A stretch of 42,196 bases of DNA from a virus (taxonomy: Duplodnaviria > Heunggongvirae > Uroviricota > Caudoviricetes): IMG/VR virus record IMGVR_UViG_2609460218_000018, positions 1 through 42,196 of that record, one strand, 5' to 3'. Each line of letters begins with the position of its first letter. Position 1 is the first letter of the stretch. Shown here one piece after another: positions 4,764-16,968 of this stretch. The notes under the pieces are model-generated. The model was not told the origin of the DNA. It saw nothing but the letters and a program-made list of their open reading frames with translations, and made no database searches. Both the position numbers and the translations under genes were made by a program.

Positions 4764-4994
4764 TTAACGCGCTGTAATCTGCCCGGATTTACGATGACCT
4801 GCGGCGAATATTGCAACTTCTGGCAAACACGCAGATCCGCCTGCATTGCTGTCACGCAGACTACCGAGCGAAGTGGCGCGGTCTACTCGTGACGGACATC
4901 CGCTAAGAATTTCACCAATGCGATTTGCGAAGTGTTTCTCAGCTGCTTTCTTTGCGTTAAACGCCGCAAGGCGACGAGCCTGATTTCTGTTCAT
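4764..4994 (-). CDS. N: N-like transcription antiterminator
   Basis: 76 aa with an arginine-rich N-terminus (NRNQARRLAAFNAKKAAEKH) like the RNA-binding motif of lambdoid N proteins; C-terminus (AAGHRKSGQITAR) resembles P22 gene 24 as I remember it; first gene downstream of the nutL-like site. Confidence 0.6.
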   Translation of the reverse strand: MNRNQARRLAAFNAKKAAEKHFANRIGEILSGCPSRVDRATSLGSLRDSNAGGSACLPEVAIFAAGHRKSGQITAR

Positions 4995-5349: not shown

Positions 5350-6075
5350 TTACCAAAGTGTCGATGACCAGAAAACGCGACCTATTACTTCTACGCTTCC
5401 TATCTCTGCTTCTTCATCGGGCCATTCTGCAGAGTTATAACTACGAATGGTTAACGTTTCTGGTCCAGTTCTGTACAAAAGTTTTAGGCGCTTCCAGCCG
5501 CCCTGGTTTATTGCATACAGCTTGCCATCGACAATCTTTTTATCGTTGCAGTTTACAGCTACTGTTGTTCCTTCCGGGATCACCGGCTCCATGCTATTCC
5601 CATGAGCAGGAAAGCAAAGAACGCCAGATCCATCAGAATTGATGCCTTTGCGTCTTAATGTTGACTTAGAAAAACGAAGCATAAATCCGTTGTAGTCCTC
5701 ATCAGAGAAGCTTCCGTCACCACACGCAAATTCAATATCTTTGAGGAATGGCACTTCCACTTCATCACCGCTAAGAGGGGTTTCATTGTCCCACGGTTCA
5801 ACGGGCTTCCAATCCATTTCTGGAGGAATATCTGAATCAGGATGATGTGGTGTACTTCCATCACCCTTCATCGGCCCAACTTCCTCTGCGAGCCATTCAG
5901 GGCGCACACCTAAAGCTCGAGAGATCTCGATAATCTTAGTTGAGCTTTTGGCGTTCCCAGACGTTAGCTTTTGAATTGCGGCTTGGCTCACACCAGCCAA
6001 CTTAGCCAGGTTCATCTGAGTCATGCCAGCTTCGCGCATGGCAACTTTTAAGCGTTCTGCAAGTGTCATTTTCAT
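5350..6075 (-). CDS. cI: CI-type repressor, HTH plus S24 (LexA-like) autopeptidase domain
   Basis: ORF 5350..6240 trimmed to the internal start MKMTLAERLK... (about 6075): N-terminal HTH (MTQMNLAKLAGVSQAAIQKL), C-terminal S24 motifs (GNSMEP, GGWKRLK); divergent from cro. Confidence 0.85.
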   Translation of the reverse strand: MKMTLAERLKVAMREAGMTQMNLAKLAGVSQAAIQKLTSGNAKSSTKIIEISRALGVRPEWLAEEVGPMKGDGSTPHHPDSDIPPEMDWKPVEPWDNETPLSGDEVEVPFLKDIEFACGDGSFSDEDYNGFMLRFSKSTLRRKGINSDGSGVLCFPAHGNSMEPVIPEGTTVAVNCNDKKIVDGKLYAINQGGWKRLKLLYRTGPETLTIRSYNSAEWPDEEAEIGSVEVIGRVFWSSTLW

Positions 6076-9191: not shown

Positions 9192-9493
9192 GTTTCAAAG
9201 AAGCACGTAACACACGGGAAATTATCGAAGCTGAGTACCCGGAATTCCCTGAAACCATCCTCCACGCCGAACTATGCCGGGCATGTGCTCGCGTAGACGG
9301 TCGCAGCATCAAGCAGTCGCTAAAGGCCTTTGCTCTGGCACGTATCGAAAAGGTTGATAGCAAGCCACTTAAAGGAGCACTTGAGCAGATGGCATCCAGC
9401 ATGTTTCCAGAGACAGAGATAGCCCGTATCCGCTCCTGTGTAGGTCGCATGGAGTCGGCACTGGTTAAGACATTCGGAGTGAAGCGAGCATGA
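9188..9493 (+). CDS. hypothetical protein
   Basis: 101-aa ORF translationally coupled to dnaB. Confidence 0.4.
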
Positions 9494-9738
9494 CTGAACC
9501 TTACATAGCAGAGCTATCTGCAAGCGTGGCCGTGATAGTCGGCCNTTTTTTATGGCTGGAGGAAATTGTGAAAGTTGAGATGACCGATGATTTCAGCGAC
9601 AGAAGCGATCACCCACGAAAAGGTTCTCAGATTGAAGTGAGAGATATCGTTTATTCAGATGGTGAAGTTGAGTATTACGAATGTGTATGGGGTGACTCCA
9701 TTCTGGAAATTTACCCGTATGAATGCAGATTAATTTAA
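9490..9738 (+). CDS. hypothetical small protein; true start probably about 9570 (GTG after a GGAGG RBS), downstream of an internal terminator-like hairpin
   Basis: The track ORF contains hairpin GGCCG..CGGCC plus N plus T6 at ~9528-9551, then GGAGG and GTG; the C-terminal 55 aa are the likely product. Confidence 0.35.
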   Translation: MTEPYIAELSASVAVIVGXFLWLEEIVKVEMTDDFSDRSDHPRKGSQIEVRDIVYSDGEVEYYECVWGDSILEIYPYECRLI

Positions 9739-9740
9739 CA

Positions 9741-9763
9741 GGTCCGAATACGGGCCTTTTTTT
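9741..9763 (+). terminator. intrinsic terminator
   Basis: GGTCCGaataCGGGCC (G-U wobble stem) followed by TTTTTTT. Confidence 0.55.
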
Positions 9764-9778
9764 ATGAGGGGGGGGATT

Positions 9779-10073
9779 ATGAAGAAANTTTTTAGCAGTT
9801 GCTATTTGTTTATTTTTATCAGCCTGCGATGAGGATCCGCAACCATCTCGAATTGACGCCATTGTTGGTGCTGATGCGGGGAGATTTAGCGTCACTCAAG
9901 TAGCAAAGTTTTACGACTCTGATGCGTATGGGAATAACAGGAAGATTTTCCTGATTCGAGATAAGCAGACAAACCGGGAATTCGTTGGTGTTTCTGGCGT
10001 AGGCATATCTGAGGTTGGAACTCACAGCCAATCAAGTGGCAAGCAAGTTATTTCAGTAACTGATGAGCGATAG
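9779..10073 (+). CDS. lipoprotein (signal peptide with lipobox LSAC); frame restored if the N at ~9788 is an inserted base
   Basis: After the terminator and a G-rich RBS: ATG AAG AAA (N) then LAVAICLFLSACDEDPQ...; removing the N gives a continuous 97-aa lipoprotein ending at TAG 10071-10073. Confidence 0.5.
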
Positions 10074-10082
10074 GAGAATCAA

Positions 10083-10817
10083 ATGAAACCGACATACGAA
10101 GAACTAGAGCAGAAACTCGAAGAATCCCGTCGCGAGTTCCGTTCAGCAGACGCGACCATTCACAATCTTGAACTGAAGATCACAGACCTTGCAGTACAGC
10201 TCGCTAACGCCGAGAGCAAGTGCAGGGAGCTGGCGGCGGAGAATTCGGGGCTGAAGAACAGCGATTTTTACATCGCGCTTCGAACAGAAAGCGATGCTGA
10301 CATCCTGAATGATAAGCACCTGACCATTTGCTACATGAGCGCTTCGGCAACGTCAAAGCTTGATGTTAACCGCATTATGCCTGAGCAGGCAGAGGCAAAA
10401 ATATCCGCAGTTGAATATTGGGAAAGAGTAAATCTGACAGTAGCTCTAATCGATTCTCCAGATGCTCATGCCGCGCATAAACTATCAAAAATAGCTGGGT
10501 TCACATACGACCTAGAATTCATGCCTCACGTAACACTTGGTTGTGGTGATACGACCAAAGAGCATCAAAATCTTGTCGGGAAGATACTTACTATTGGAAG
10601 TCCTTACATCCGAATCAAGGAAAGCAAGAGGAAAACACCGGACACCGACGCTTTCCTGGCTGAAGTGCGGGCTCAGGGTGTGGAGATGATGGCCGCTGAA
10701 GCTGATCAACTGATGAATGAGTTTGGAGATGACAGCTACAAAGTGATGGTAACATCAGATTTACAGCGTTTCGCCAATGCTTTCGCCGCACAACTTCGCA
10801 AAGGAGCCGCGCTATGA
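10083..10817 (+). CDS. 2H-phosphoesterase-like protein with N-terminal coiled coil
   Basis: 244 aa; two H-x-T-x motifs 70 residues apart (HLTI at ~79, HVTL at ~149) each preceded by hydrophobic residues, as in the 2H (LigT-like) superfamily; residues 1-60 are predicted coiled coil. Confidence 0.45.
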   Translation: MKPTYEELEQKLEESRREFRSADATIHNLELKITDLAVQLANAESKCRELAAENSGLKNSDFYIALRTESDADILNDKHLTICYMSASATSKLDVNRIMPEQAEAKISAVEYWERVNLTVALIDSPDAHAAHKLSKIAGFTYDLEFMPHVTLGCGDTTKEHQNLVGKILTIGSPYIRIKESKRKTPDTDAFLAEVRAQGVEMMAAEADQLMNEFGDDSYKVMVTSDLQRFANAFAAQLRKGAAL

Positions 10818-13792: not shown

Positions 13793-13935
13793 CATTCGAA
13801 TCCTACTTTGCTGATCACCTTCGACTGCGATGGACACGGTTACGCATCTATCGTCGCCCGGGCTCATTTGCCACTGACTACCGGATATTACGCAATTACA
13901 TCAGTCGCTATAAAACATCAGGAGCAGAAGCATGA
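13789..13935 (+). CDS. hypothetical small Arg-rich protein (48 aa, possible NinH position)
   Basis: ATG overlaps the ninG stop and its stop overlaps the next start; MTFESYFADHLRLRWTRLRIYRRPGSF... Confidence 0.3.
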   Translation: MTFESYFADHLRLRWTRLRIYRRPGSFATDYRILRNYISRYKTSGAEA

Positions 13936-14546
13936 AGATAACGCCGATATTCTCAATGGTGAACTTTGTTGATGACGCTCATTTCCGGCGCGTGTGGCGT
14001 CACCCAAAAAAGACCATCACCAAAAAACAGCAGGCATGGGTACATTACATGCTGTCAGTCTGGGGGCGAGTTAATCGTGGTGATGATTCTCCAGCAGGTG
14101 CTATCAACGTTATCGGTCGCCTGATGATTCGCAGCCACTGGAGTGAGGATAAAGCCAACCAGATAGAAAGAGTTGTTATGCGGCTTTATGAAGAGGATGG
14201 CCTGCGTGGTGATGTTCTCTATCAGAAAGCCAGAGAGCTGGTTATCCCTCAATCATCGTTCAGCAATATCATCGCTCTCGCCAAAGAATCAGATGATGCC
14301 GCTTTCGTTGAACGCGTGATGATTAAAACGCTCCACCGGGAAAGCCCAGTTCGTGATGTCGCTATTAAACGATATTGTGATTGCAACAACACGCAAGACA
14401 TCGCTCGACGAATTCAATACCACACTGGTGCTGATATTCAATATTGCCGTAAGCGCGTTGTGTGGTGCGAGAACGTACTCGATGCGGAAATGTTTTACGC
14501 AATGAAGCGCGAATTGGAGAAGGAGATTCCAGAAATTGCAGCGTAA
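13932..14546 (+). CDS. Q: late-gene antiterminator Q-like protein (assigned mainly by position)
   Basis: 204-aa protein as the last nin-region gene, immediately upstream of a promoter plus ~190-nt leader ending in an intrinsic terminator; Cys-rich segment (CDCNN..CRKRVVWC). Confidence 0.5.
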   Translation: MKITPIFSMVNFVDDAHFRRVWRHPKKTITKKQQAWVHYMLSVWGRVNRGDDSPAGAINVIGRLMIRSHWSEDKANQIERVVMRLYEEDGLRGDVLYQKARELVIPQSSFSNIIALAKESDDAAFVERVMIKTLHRESPVRDVAIKRYCDCNNTQDIARRIQYHTGADIQYCRKRVVWCENVLDAEMFYAMKRELEKEIPEIAA

Positions 14547-14772: not shown

Positions 14773-14802
14773 GCCCTGAGTTAATAGCTCGGGGCNTTTT
14801 TT
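14773..14802 (+). terminator. tR'-like intrinsic terminator
   Basis: GCCCTGAGttaatagCTCGGGGC, then N, then TTTTTTATTG. Confidence 0.6.
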
Positions 14803-15939: not shown

Positions 15940-16558
15940 AGACCAGTTTATCAAAGCAACAGGTATCACACCGGCTTTAGCCGACAAGTGGTACCAGTGC
16001 ATAGTCGATACCATGAAGGAATTCGGTATTGATACGCCAAAAAGACAAGCTCACTTTCTTGCACAGATTGGCACTGAATCAAATGGGTTCAGGTCGGTGC
16101 AGGAATCTCTTAATTACTCGGTATCAGGCCTGCAGATATTCGGCTCCCGACTGACCGAGCCTCAACGGCAGCATCTCGGGAGAAAGCCTGGAGAAATGGC
16201 GTTATCTCCTGCGAGACAAGAAGCCATTGCGAATATCGTTTACGGCGGCCGGTACGGTAACACTCAAAACGGCGACGGATGGAAATATCGTGGTCGTGGG
16301 CTGAAGCAGATTACCTTTAAGGATAATTACTCAGCATGCGGGAAAGCTCTGAATCTTGATTTGGTGGCCAATCCAGATTTGCTCCTTCAGGACTTAAACG
16401 CGGCTCGTTCCGCTGGGTGGTTCTGGAAAGCCAATAACTGCAATCAGTTCGCTGATACCGGGGACGTTAAAGGTTTAACCAGGCGTATTAATGGTGGATT
16501 CAATGGGCTGCAGGACAGAATCGACCGCACGAATAAAGCGGAGGCAGTTCTGAAATGA
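15932..16558 (+). CDS. endolysin, glycoside hydrolase family 19 (chitinase-like)
   Basis: 208 aa with GH19-type motifs (HFLAQIGTESNGF, GWKYRGRGLKQITFKDNY, NPDLL...AGWFW); overlaps the holin stop. Confidence 0.8.
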   Translation: MNKDQFIKATGITPALADKWYQCIVDTMKEFGIDTPKRQAHFLAQIGTESNGFRSVQESLNYSVSGLQIFGSRLTEPQRQHLGRKPGEMALSPARQEAIANIVYGGRYGNTQNGDGWKYRGRGLKQITFKDNYSACGKALNLDLVANPDLLLQDLNAARSAGWFWKANNCNQFADTGDVKGLTRRINGGFNGLQDRIDRTNKAEAVLK

Positions 16559-16968
16559 GCATCACCACGATTAAAAACCTCATCCCATTCATTTTCGCGC
16601 TGATCATCATCGGCTTCATCGTAAAGCTCGGCGCTGACAACCGGCAGTTGCGCATCAGTAACGCTTCTCTTACCGCAGAATCGAAGCAACTCAACGTCAA
16701 GAATAACGATCTGGCCACAACGCTGCAGAATCTGACCGACGCCGTCACCGACATGAACAAGTTGGTAGATAAAGAGGCCAAGCGACGAGCAGCAGCAGAA
16801 ATGAAATCACAGAGATTGCAGGAAGAGGTGAAAGATGCGCTTAAAAACAACAAGTGCTCTATCGAGCTTATTCCTGATTCTGTCATTGAGCAGTTGCGCA
16901 GACAGGCAGATTCAATACGAAGTGGTAAAGACGCCAACAGTACCGATACCGGCAAATCTTCTGGTTGA
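16555..16968 (+). CDS. i-spanin (Rz-like)
   Basis: N-terminal TM helix then coiled-coil periplasmic domain; overlaps the endolysin stop. Confidence 0.7.
   Translation: MSITTIKNLIPFIFALIIIGFIVKLGADNRQLRISNASLTAESKQLNVKNNDLATTLQNLTDAVTDMNKLVDKEAKRRAAAEMKSQRLQEEVKDALKNNKCSIELIPDSVIEQLRRQADSIRSGKDANSTDTGKSSG

What the first reader, a model, noticed from the sequence alone, without database searches (positions are those of the whole stretch)
9528..10073. Terminator-delimited lipoprotein moron in the replication-to-nin interval
Two hairpin-plus-T-tract elements (~9528-9551 and 9741-9763) flank a small gene, and directly after the second a lipoprotein gene begins (signal peptide MKKFLAVAICLFLSAC). 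Small phage lipoproteins in this kind of position are classically superinfection-exclusion factors that block a receptor (Cor, Llp). The reading frame is only continuous if the N at ~9788 is an inserted base.
Basis: partly seen in the sequence, partly recalled or inferred. Interest (0 to 1): 0.45.

Follow-up and report, generated by a model that had tools for sequence, protein, structure and literature searches.

The report
Inner-membrane phage lipoprotein, unnamed family
The gene is real once a sequencing-artefact N is removed, and it encodes a small lipoprotein probably kept in the inner membrane; it belongs to a large, uncharacterised phage family, is not a Cor/Llp-type receptor blocker, and is not a self-contained moron.

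Summary
Two hairpin-plus-T-run elements (9528-9551, 9740-9763) flank a small gene (9568-9738). A lipoprotein gene (9779-10073) starts 16 nt after the second. It reads through only if N9788 is dropped. In this window every N that sits in front of an A/T run inside a gene behaves as an inserted base, and intact 97-aa homologues (92% identity, Salmonella prophages) lack that base.

Both hairpins lie upstream of the gene. No promoter-like site precedes it, and the next gene follows 9 nt later. It therefore looks like the first gene behind terminators placed where lambda has tR2, in an N-antiterminated early operon.

The protein is not related to Llp beyond its signal peptide. Asp follows the lipid-modified Cys in all enterobacterial homologues, which predicts inner-membrane retention. 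Cor and Llp act in the outer membrane.

It belongs to an unnamed family: 428 cluster representatives, no Pfam or PDB match, six-stranded beta domain ending in DER. Members occur in lambdoid, T1-like and jumbo phages, either among early genes or between endolysin and Rz.

Function is unknown. My best guess (about 30%) is exclusion of superinfecting phages after adsorption, at the periplasm or inner membrane. A role in lysis is a close rival.

The parts
9490..9571 (+). Possible 26-aa small ORF ([26 protein letters not shown] if N9545 is dropped). It overlaps the stop of the upstream gene (ATGA) and the GTG start of the next gene (GTGA), and it contains hairpin 1. Status uncertain.
   Evidence: Sequence. 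The same ORF start and first 21 codons occur in Salmonella prophages L001-3 behind a different upstream gene. Not called as a gene there.
9528..9551 (+). Hairpin 1 plus T run: stem GGCCG/CGGCC, 7-nt loop, N9545, then 6 T. Candidate intrinsic terminator.
   Evidence: Stem, loop and T run identical in L001-3, except that the T run there has 6 T and no extra base.
9568..9738 (+). Small gene of 56 codons (GTG start, Shine-Dalgarno GGAGG at 9558-9562), phrog_14198. It is absent from the Salmonella relatives, where the two hairpins lie about 25 nt apart.
9740..9763 (+). Hairpin 2 plus 7 T: 7-pair stem, 4-nt loop, -10.7 kcal/mol. Candidate intrinsic terminator at the position of lambda tR2.
   Evidence: In L001-3 the stem sequence differs but stays paired, at -13.7 kcal/mol.
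9766..9776 (+). G-rich Shine-Dalgarno (GAGGGGGGGGA) for the lipoprotein gene.
   Evidence: Sequence. Conserved in L001-3 as GAGGGTAGGA.
9779..10073 (+). Lipoprotein gene: 97 codons plus TAG, once the inserted N at 9788 is removed.
9788..9788 (.). N that acts as an inserted base (uncertain homopolymer length at an A3/T5 junction).
9779..9827 (+). Lipoprotein signal peptide MKKFLAVAICLFLSAC: basic n-region, 10-residue hydrophobic core, lipobox LSAC, lipid-modified Cys16 at 9825-9827.
   Evidence: Sequence. Cys16 is invariant in the seven close homologues (A1) and at least 90% conserved in 150 family members. About 80% of family representatives carry a lipobox.
9828..9830 (+). Asp17, the residue after the lipid-modified Cys (+2), followed by Glu. 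This is the Lol-avoidance signal that predicts inner-membrane retention.
   Evidence: Invariant in the 7 close homologues. Asp at +2 in 31 of 50 lipobox-bearing loci, including all those I could assign to enterobacterial phages or prophages. The rule itself is described in PMC6469965 and PMC5727369.
9864..10070 (+). Conserved periplasmic domain: six antiparallel beta strands, motif RFxVxxVxxFxDxxAYxxxRxIFxIxDxxTxxEFxGVSGVGISExGxH...GK...DER, ending at the C-terminus.
10083..10817 (+). Next gene in the operon (244 aa, coiled coil plus a 2H-phosphoesterase/Acb1-like region). It starts 9 nt after the lipoprotein stop, so no terminator separates them.
4764..4994 (-). Context: lambda-type N antiterminator peptide, which makes read-through of the hairpins plausible.
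   Evidence: Pfam N_peptide PF25694, 45.4 bits against a cutoff of 27.9.

Best explanation
What it is. The segment is the boundary between the replication genes and the nin-type genes of a lambdoid early (PR) operon. Two hairpin-plus-T-run elements stand where lambda has tR2. RNA polymerase modified by the phage's N protein would read through them. The first gene behind them (9779-10073) is intact once the artefactual N at 9788 is removed.

The protein. It is a 97-aa prolipoprotein. After signal peptidase II cleavage, the lipid-modified Cys16 is followed by Asp-Glu. The mature protein of about 81 residues should therefore escape LolCDE and stay in the outer leaflet of the inner membrane. It would display a small six-stranded beta domain, ending in an invariant DER, in the periplasm. 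It belongs to a large, unnamed, uncharacterised family of phage proteins. That family is carried either among early genes (lambdoid, T1-like and jumbo phages) or between endolysin and Rz in lambdoid lysis cassettes.

Expression (inferred). It is made during lytic growth, not from the repressed prophage.

Function (inferred, about 30%). It acts on a conserved component at the periplasmic face of the inner membrane. There it would block a post-adsorption step of superinfecting phages: peptidoglycan penetration or DNA transit across the periplasm and inner membrane. This is the manner of T4 Sp/Imm or streptococcal Ltp, not outer-membrane receptor masking.

Shown here: gene integrity, lipobox, Asp at +2, family size, genomic contexts, lack of homology to known exclusion proteins. 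Inferred: membrane location, timing of expression, function.
For: Gene integrity:
- Full-length homologues of 60-92% identity span the N position.
- The window carries one extra base relative to them.
- Every N that precedes an A/T run inside a gene acts as an insertion.
- dN/dS is 0.20.

Lipoprotein and inner-membrane sorting:
- Lipobox LSAC and Cys16 are conserved.
- Asp at +2 is invariant in enterobacterial members, including the T1-like and lysis-cassette clades.
- Other members replace the lipobox with a transmembrane helix or a prepilin N-methylation motif, which are also inner-membrane anchors.
- Some members carry a CxxxC pair in a loop, which fits an oxidising compartment.

Family:
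- 428 cluster representatives at E<=1e-3 and 226 at E<=1e-10.
- 671 clusters at 90% identity, none carrying an informative or consistent name (two bear a JGI 'secreted trypsin-like serine protease' label), none with a Pfam domain.
- AlphaFold2 model with mean pLDDT 85, with no significant PDB or viral-structure match.

Operon context:
- CI, Cro, CII, O, DnaB, NinB, NinG and an N peptide are all present.
- No promoter-like site lies between 8426 and 13000.
- The next gene follows 9 nt after the stop.

Lytic-cycle role:
- Homologues occur in virulent Drexlerviridae and in jumbo phages.
- Others are translationally coupled inside late lysis cassettes.

Conserved target:
- The same domain occurs in phages of Enterobacteriaceae and Burkholderia and in a Pelomonas genome, next to different holins, endolysins and neighbours.
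Against: - No experiment and no homology links the family to exclusion.
- The Asp +2 rule is a prediction. Outside enterobacterial phages the +2 residue is often Gly or Ser.
- About a third of the sampled loci place the gene between endolysin and Rz. There it would be made only late, which is a poor time for exclusion and points towards lysis.
- Hairpin 1 is weak (z -0.3) and may lie inside a small ORF.
- Termination and N-dependent read-through were not tested.
- A promoter that the simple sigma-70 scan misses cannot be excluded.
Confidence: 0.45

Rival explanations
1. Lysis accessory or regulator. The inner-membrane-tethered periplasmic domain modulates the lytic endgame. It might restrain or release membrane-tethered (SAR) or leaked endolysin, act on the Rz/Rz1 spanin, or neutralise a host envelope factor that resists lysis.
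For: About 19-20 of 59 distinct loci have the gene exactly between endolysin and Rz. Of these, 12 have an R21-like Phage_lysozyme with a SAR-type N-terminus and 5 have GH19. In the 14 loci with the commonest Rz type the stop overlaps the Rz start (ATGA), and the cassettes use four different holin families. A SAR endolysin and an inner-membrane lipoprotein would share compartment and topology. Early-made protein would persist until lysis, so both genomic contexts fit a late function.
Against: In the window, in T1-like phages and in jumbo phages the gene lies far from the lysis genes. The window's own cassette (holin 15586, GH19 endolysin 15932, i-spanin-like 16555) has no such gene and no room for one. 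One member sits in a bacterial chromosome with no lysis genes nearby. The partner proteins vary, so no specific phage partner is implied. The endolysin-to-Rz junction could simply be another place where accessory genes get inserted.
Confidence: 0.25
2. Other envelope target. The protein might counter an envelope-based host defence or stress response, or reprogramme cell-wall synthesis or division during infection.
For: It is an early gene among anti-defence-like neighbours. The next gene in the window has a borderline Acb1 match, and one homologue is followed by an Acb2/Tad1-hairpin protein. The conserved polar residues D46, Y50, R54, D61, S72, E78, H82 and the DER tail suggest a specific ligand or partner.
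Against: No PADLOC or anti-defence family match. The neighbours are not consistent between loci.
Confidence: 0.15
3. One reading: a Cor/Llp-type outer-membrane lipoprotein that masks a receptor such as FhuA or BtuB, carried as an autonomous moron expressed from the prophage.
For: It has a lipoprotein signal peptide much like that of Llp (LSAC in both), it is small, and its distribution is patchy.
Against: Only the signal peptide aligns with Llp. No fold or sequence match to 8a60 or 7qjf. Asp at +2 here against Ser in Llp. The gene is not next to a receptor-binding gene, whereas cor sits next to J (PMC13164509). No promoter and no downstream terminator. The same domain occurs in phages of Burkholderia and of Enterobacteriaceae, which have different receptors.
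Confidence: 0.05
4. The extra base at 9788 is real. This copy would then be a frameshifted pseudogene, or a gene switched on and off by slippage in the A/T run.
For: The sequence as written stops after 17 codons. A3/T5-6 runs can slip.
Against: All four Ns that precede A/T runs inside genes behave as inserted bases, while Ns elsewhere preserve frames. That pattern is an assembly signature. The rest of the gene shows purifying selection and has no other defects.
Confidence: 0.05

Closest known systems
T5 Llp (and Cor of T1/phi80/N15): outer-membrane lipoproteins that block FhuA
   Same: Small phage lipoprotein made during lytic growth. The signal peptide is nearly the same type, with LSAC in both.
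   Different: No similarity beyond the signal peptide and no fold match. Ser at +2 sends Llp to the outer membrane, whereas Asp is found here. llp and cor lie next to receptor-binding tail genes (PMC13164509 for cor; my own knowledge for llp), while this gene lies among early genes or in lysis cassettes.
T4 Spackle (Sp) and Imm: early periplasmic or inner-membrane exclusion proteins
   Same: Small (Sp is also about 97 aa as precursor), exported, made early in lytic growth, and acting after adsorption in the periplasm or at the inner membrane. Sp also links exclusion to lysis phenotypes, which would fit the two genomic contexts seen here. This description rests on my own knowledge of the literature.
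   Different: Sp is soluble and helical, whereas this protein is lipid-anchored and all-beta. No sequence or fold relation. The function of this protein is untested.
Ltp of Streptococcus thermophilus phage TP-J34: lipoprotein on the outer face of the cytoplasmic membrane that blocks DNA injection
   Same: The predicted topology is the same: lipid-anchored to the cytoplasmic membrane, with the domain outside. This rests on my own knowledge.
   Different: Ltp comes from a Gram-positive host, is helical, belongs to a Pfam family and is expressed from the prophage. No Pfam match was found here.
Rz1 o-spanin and lambda Bor: lipoproteins of lambdoid late regions
   Same: Small phage lipoproteins. 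Some relatives of this gene sit in the lysis cassette directly upstream of Rz/Rz1.
   Different: Rz1 and Bor are outer-membrane lipoproteins. In L015 the homologue coexists with a complete Rz/Rz1 pair. No match to the Pfam Rz-lysis (Phage_lysis) family, and, if Pfam's Bor family is as I recall it, none to that either.
Lambda tR2-tR4 terminators of the nin region
   Same: Hairpin-plus-T-run elements just downstream of the replication genes, in a phage that encodes an N peptide.
   Different: No sequence relation was tested. Hairpin 1 is weak and may lie inside a small ORF. Activity was not tested.
Pfam DUF6440 (small uncharacterised proteins; Firmicutes and their phages, from memory)
   Same: 2 of 150 family members match weakly, with a best E-value of 2.4e-4. 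A DUF6440 phage protein appears among the non-significant structural hits. From memory, the two share an RF...D..TG..Y...G.G core.
   Different: The window protein itself gives no Pfam match at E<=0.1. DUF6440 has no known function.

Membership tests
Bacterial lipoprotein (signal peptidase II substrate) | Basic n-region, hydrophobic core, lipobox [LVI][ASTVI][GAS]C with the Cys within about the first 35 residues | tested here: met
   MKK / FLAVAICLF / LSAC with Cys16. The Cys is at least 90% conserved in 150 homologues. 123 of 155 representatives carry a lipobox, and LPAM_1 hits occur in some members. No dedicated predictor such as LipoP or SignalP was available.
Inner-membrane-retained lipoprotein (Lol avoidance) | Asp at +2, strongest with Asp/Glu/Gln/Asn at +3 | tested here: met
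   The window has C-D-E. Asp17 is invariant in 7 close homologues and in the T1-like and lysis-cassette enterobacterial clades. The rule is described in PMC6469965 and PMC5727369. Actual localisation was not tested.
Cor/Llp receptor-blocking exclusion lipoproteins | Sequence or fold similarity of the mature domain to Llp or Cor | tested here: not met
   hhalign against Llp aligns only 18 signal-peptide columns. There are no PDB sequence or fold hits to 8a60 or 7qjf. The only PHROG hits are two unknown-function families.
Cor/Llp receptor-blocking exclusion lipoproteins | Outer-membrane sorting (a non-Asp residue at +2) | tested here: not met
   Asp at +2 here, Ser in Llp.
Cor/Llp receptor-blocking exclusion lipoproteins | Gene adjacent to the receptor-binding tail gene | tested here: not met
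   The gene lies between DnaB and the nin genes. Cor lies next to J (PMC13164509).
Cor/Llp receptor-blocking exclusion lipoproteins | Expression blocks adsorption or infection through a specific receptor | not testable with these tools
   Needs experiments.
Moron (autonomous promoter-gene-terminator unit expressed from the prophage) | Own promoter directly upstream | tested here: not met
   There is no sigma-70-like site near the gene. Only 16 nt separate the T run from the ATG.
Moron (autonomous promoter-gene-terminator unit expressed from the prophage) | Own terminator directly downstream | tested here: not met
   The next gene starts 9 nt after the stop, and its Shine-Dalgarno overlaps the stop codon. 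No + strand terminator-like site lies between 9763 and 11311.
Moron (autonomous promoter-gene-terminator unit expressed from the prophage) | Present or absent between otherwise related genomes | tested here: met
   The gene sits in different operons and beside different neighbours in related phages. The small gene 9568-9738 is itself an insertion relative to L001-3.
Unnamed phage family (phrog_16585; GVSGVGISE...DER domain) | Full-length profile match, with the invariant D46, Y50, R54, D61, G70, G73, G75 and the C-terminal DER | tested here: met
   phrog_16585 at 5.8e-14. All invariant columns are present in the window protein. The family profile finds 428 representatives.
Pfam DUF6440 | Match above the Pfam gathering threshold | tested here: inconclusive
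   The window protein gives no hit at E<=0.1. 2 of 150 relatives hit, with a best E-value of 2.4e-4.
Lambda-type N-sensitive intrinsic terminators (tR2 position) | G+C-rich hairpin followed by a U run, downstream of the replication genes, in a phage with an N antiterminator | tested here: met
   Termination and read-through activity cannot be tested here.
o-spanin (Rz1) | Outer-membrane lipoprotein gene embedded in, or overlapping, an i-spanin gene | tested here: not met
   No i-spanin lies next to the gene in the window. The window's i-spanin-like gene is at 16555-16968. In L015 the homologue precedes a separate Rz/Rz1 pair.

The most novel reading that the evidence does not exclude
The gene represents a new, widespread class of phage envelope effectors: small beta-domain proteins anchored to the periplasmic face of the inner membrane by a Lol-avoiding lipid anchor, a transmembrane helix or a pilin-like anchor. 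This class would perform a function not yet described in Gram-negative infection. One possibility is an extra component of lysis cassettes that controls endolysin or spanin action or removes a host barrier to lysis. The other is a new post-adsorption exclusion mechanism shared by temperate, T1-like and jumbo phages.
Probability: 0.3. Interest if true: 0.65.

Novelty: new variant of a known kind. Interest (0 to 1): 0.42.

Why it matters
Small phage lipoproteins are usually filed by analogy under 'Cor/Llp-like exclusion'. This case shows the analogy fails on sequence, predicted sorting and gene position. It also brings to light a family of several hundred sequence clusters that has no name, no Pfam model and no solved structure. 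That family recurs in well-studied phage groups (lambdoid prophages of Salmonella, Enterobacter and Klebsiella; Drexlerviridae; jumbo phages) and sits inside phage-21-type lysis cassettes between R and Rz. If it proves to be a lysis component or a new exclusion mechanism, it would add a player to two textbook pathways. It is cheap to test, because T1-like phages and inducible prophages carrying it are already in culture. On the practical side, the N-before-homopolymer pattern explains several apparent frameshifts in this assembly.

Tried and rejected
Searches that found nothing:
- Megablast of 9480-10090 against the phage and E. coli genome collections: no match.
- Pfam, NCBIfam and PADLOC scans of the repaired protein: no hits.

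Structure:
- The first AlphaFold2 run used only 6 sequences and was poor (pLDDT 59). A 150-sequence alignment gave pLDDT 85.
- The afdb50 library was unavailable.
- The profile search against PDB sequences returned only one chance hit.

Readings considered and rejected:
- o-spanin: Asp at +2, and the homologue coexists with Rz/Rz1.
- Bor-like: no Pfam hit.
- Serine protease, as two JGI records label relatives: there is no GxSxG register, and a 65-residue domain is too small.
- Mu releasin and T4 RI analogies: considered only as functional parallels.

Other:
- The literature searches found no paper on this family.
Full report
OBSERVATION

The region was read directly. The terminator scan lists two elements on the + strand. 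The first has stem 9528-9544 (five G-C pairs, 7-nt loop) followed by N9545 and six T. The second has stem 9740-9757 (seven pairs, 4-nt loop) followed by seven T.

Taken alone their energies are ordinary: -10.0 and -10.7 kcal/mol, with z-scores of -0.3 and -2.0 against shuffles. In the 6-kb scan, 10 terminator-like sites were found against 5.7 +/- 2.2 expected. A stricter scan of the whole window finds only seven hairpin-plus-T(>=6) elements on the + strand. Among the other five are 14796, just upstream of the lysis genes, and 22856, immediately before a 426-aa ORF; the rest lie in the late region.

Both elements are also present in three Salmonella prophage loci that carry the closest homologue. 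Hairpin 2 has a different stem sequence there, but the stem stays paired (-13.7 kcal/mol).

Between the two hairpins lies a small gene. It starts at GTG 9568, ends at 9738 and has a GGAGG Shine-Dalgarno at 9558-9562. It matches phrog_14198 at 2.2e-18. In the Salmonella loci this gene is missing and the hairpins are about 25 nt apart.

THE N AT 9788

The lipoprotein ORF starts at ATG 9779, behind a G-rich Shine-Dalgarno. As written it stops after 17 codons. Without N9788 it runs for 97 codons to TAG 10071-10073.

The window contains 23 Ns, and 8 of them directly precede an A/T run. Deleting an N that is not next to a run shortens the ORF through it, so those Ns are substitutions. Four run-adjacent Ns appear to fall in genes: 205, 9788, 30593 and 40083. 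Deleting any of the four lengthens the ORF. The three control repairs give sensible proteins:
- an IS66 transposase C-terminus, matched as one Pfam stretch across the junction;
- an HNH_3 domain followed, after the junction, by a weak AP2 match (E 0.0048, below the Pfam cutoff);
- a 369-aa Acyl_transf_3 protein, matched as one stretch from residue 3 to 316.

The Salmonella genes have one base fewer at exactly this spot, and also at the T run of hairpin 1. Between the window and the Salmonella copy there are 11.5 synonymous and 8.5 non-synonymous differences, giving dN/dS 0.20. I conclude that the N is an assembly artefact of homopolymer length and that the gene is intact.

THE PROTEIN

The sequence MKKFLAVAICLFLSAC|DEDPQ... 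has a basic n-region, a hydrophobic core and the lipobox LSAC. Cys16 is at least 90% conserved across 150 relatives.

Asp17 follows the lipid-modified Cys and is invariant in the seven close homologues. Asp also follows the Cys in the T1-like coliphage version (LTGC|D) and in the Enterobacter and Klebsiella prophage clade (LSAC|D). Asp at +2 is the LolCDE-avoidance signal that keeps lipoproteins in the inner membrane (PMC6469965, PMC5727369). The Glu at +3 in the window is, from my own knowledge, among the strongest contexts for retention.

Among more distant relatives the anchor varies:
- about 80% have a lipobox;
- five have a prepilin N-methylation motif;
- others have a plain transmembrane helix.

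All of these place the domain on the periplasmic side of the inner membrane. Several members carry a CxxxC pair in a loop.

THE FAMILY

A word-indexed search found only six close clusters, in Salmonella, Citrobacter and metagenomes. A profile search without a word index found far more: 428 cluster representatives at E<=1e-3 and 226 at E<=1e-10. Most are 90-110 aa. A second indexed search with the broad profile found 671 clusters. None carries an informative or consistent name (two have a JGI 'secreted trypsin-like serine protease' label) and none has a Pfam domain.

The consensus is RFxVxRVxxFxDxLAYxxxRGIYxIxDxxTGxEYxGVSGVGISExGSHxxGK...DER. Columns D46, Y50, R54, D61, G70, G73 and G75 are invariant, and DER forms the C-terminus itself.

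The window protein has no Pfam, NCBIfam or PADLOC match. It matches phrog_16585, a family of unknown function. Two of 150 relatives match DUF6440 weakly.

GENOMIC CONTEXT

The window is a classical lambdoid early region. In order it carries an N peptide (4764-4994, - strand), CI, Cro, CII, O and a DnaB-type helicase. Then come a 101-aa gene, the two hairpins, the lipoprotein gene and a 244-aa 2H-phosphoesterase-like gene. Further on are DUF551, NinB and NinG, then a holin, a GH19 endolysin and an i-spanin-like gene.

The hairpins therefore stand where lambda has tR2, at the start of the nin region (my own knowledge). No promoter-like site lies near the gene. Only 16 nt separate the T run from the ATG, and the next gene starts 9 nt after the stop. 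So the gene is not delimited by terminators. It is simply the first cistron behind them, and it should be made when N-modified polymerase reads through, that is, during lytic growth.

Homologues occupy the same replication-to-nin slot in Salmonella prophages, in Enterobacter phage vB_Ecl_MII_001 and in Hafnia phage Pocitis76. In the last there is no intergenic gap on the upstream side, the start abutting the preceding gene. Homologues also lie among small early genes of some twenty virulent T1-like phages, of jumbo phages of Burkholderia, Serratia and Pectobacterium, and of uncultured phages.

A survey of 59 distinct loci gave an unexpected second context. In about 19-20 loci, all from one enterobacterial sub-clade, the gene sits between the endolysin and Rz. 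In the 14 loci with the commonest Rz type its stop overlaps the Rz start (ATGA).
- Among the upstream neighbours, 12 are Phage_lysozyme proteins with an R21-like SAR N-terminus and 5 are GH19 endolysins. They come with four different holin families.
- Among the downstream neighbours, 11 are Rz and 2 are DUF2570.
- In L015 a complete Rz/Rz1 pair follows the gene, so it is not the spanin.

One member lies in a bacterial chromosome, among housekeeping genes.

COMPARISON WITH COR AND LLP

The T5 Llp sequence was verified against PDB entry 8a60_B. A profile comparison with the family aligns only the 18 residues of the signal peptide. Llp has Ser at +2 and acts in the outer membrane on FhuA, and cor lies next to the tail-tip gene J (PMC13164509). 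The present gene fails each of these tests. The same domain also occurs in phages whose hosts and receptors are unrelated, which argues for a conserved envelope target rather than a particular receptor.

MECHANISM

Shown here:
- an intact, selected gene;
- a lipobox followed by Asp at +2;
- a large, conserved beta-domain family with invariant polar residues;
- carriage by temperate and virulent phages, in early or late operons.

Inferred:
- location in the inner membrane, facing the periplasm;
- expression during the lytic cycle;
- a conserved host or phage-entry target.

I rank the functional readings as follows:
- About 0.30: post-adsorption exclusion, or protection against muralytic entry and lysis from without, analogous to T4 Sp/Imm or Ltp.
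- About 0.25: a lysis accessory or regulator.
- About 0.15: another envelope target, such as counter-defence or control of wall synthesis.
- About 0.05: Cor/Llp-type receptor masking.
- About 0.05: a true frameshift.

The two leading readings are not exclusive. T4 Sp shows both exclusion and lysis phenotypes (my own knowledge).

VERDICT

The element is a new variant of a known kind, namely phage accessory lipoproteins. It is of moderate interest, mainly because it exposes an unnamed, widespread family with a recurring place in lysis cassettes.

Noticed in passing
window 10083-10817 (+): The 244-aa gene directly downstream has an N-terminal coiled coil and a borderline match to Pfam Acb1, the anti-CBASS 2H phosphodiesterase (26.3 bits against a cutoff of 27). 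It also matches phrog_755 'RNA ligase' at 1.4e-8. It may be a 2H-phosphoesterase or anti-defence candidate.
   Followed up: no
window 205, 30593, 40083 (also 5307, 9545, 14796, 15399, 22856): Ns placed just before A/T runs act as inserted bases and split genes. Removing them restores an IS66 transposase C-terminus (N at 205), a 160-aa HNH_3 endonuclease with a weak AP2 match in the tail region (30593) and a 369-aa Acyl_transf_3 membrane acyltransferase on the - strand (40083). The last could be an O-antigen acetylase-type conversion gene.
   Followed up: partly
window 9490-9571 (+); L001 about 5875-5960: If N9545 is dropped, a 26-aa ORF ([26 protein letters not shown]) overlaps the upstream stop (ATGA) and the next start (GTGA), and it contains hairpin 1. 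A 28-aa version with the same first 21 codons follows a different upstream gene in Salmonella prophages. Both have a GGAG or GAGG about 10 nt upstream. It could be a small membrane peptide or merely a conserved terminator module.
   Followed up: partly
window 9568-9738 (+): The small gene between the hairpins (phrog_14198, whose 'exonuclease' label is implausible for 56 aa) is an insertion relative to Salmonella prophages L001-3. If anything here is flanked by terminators, it is this gene and not the lipoprotein gene.
   Followed up: partly
L015-L017, L024-L052, L089-L090: In one enterobacterial sub-clade the family gene sits between the endolysin (R21-like SAR lysozyme or GH19) and Rz, coupled to Rz by an overlapping stop and start in most of these loci. 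This arrangement recurs across cassettes with four holin families.
   Followed up: partly
P0035, P0052, P0101, P0105, P0140 (family members): Five relatives replace the lipobox with a prepilin-type N-methylation motif (G|FTxxE; Pfam N_methyl at 1.2e-8). This suggests display as a pilin-like inner-membrane protein.
   Followed up: no
window 4764-4994 (-) and 13932-14546 (+): A lambda-type N peptide is present (PF25694, 45.4 bits). The 204-aa ORF that occupies the place of Q, upstream of the strong hairpin at 14796, has no Pfam match.
   Followed up: no
L018 7001-7300 (MAG GCA_034680565.1): One family member lies in a bacterial chromosome among housekeeping genes (prfB, ftsEX, pyrD, rpiB), in a small island of four genes with no Pfam match and long intergenic spacers.
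   Followed up: no
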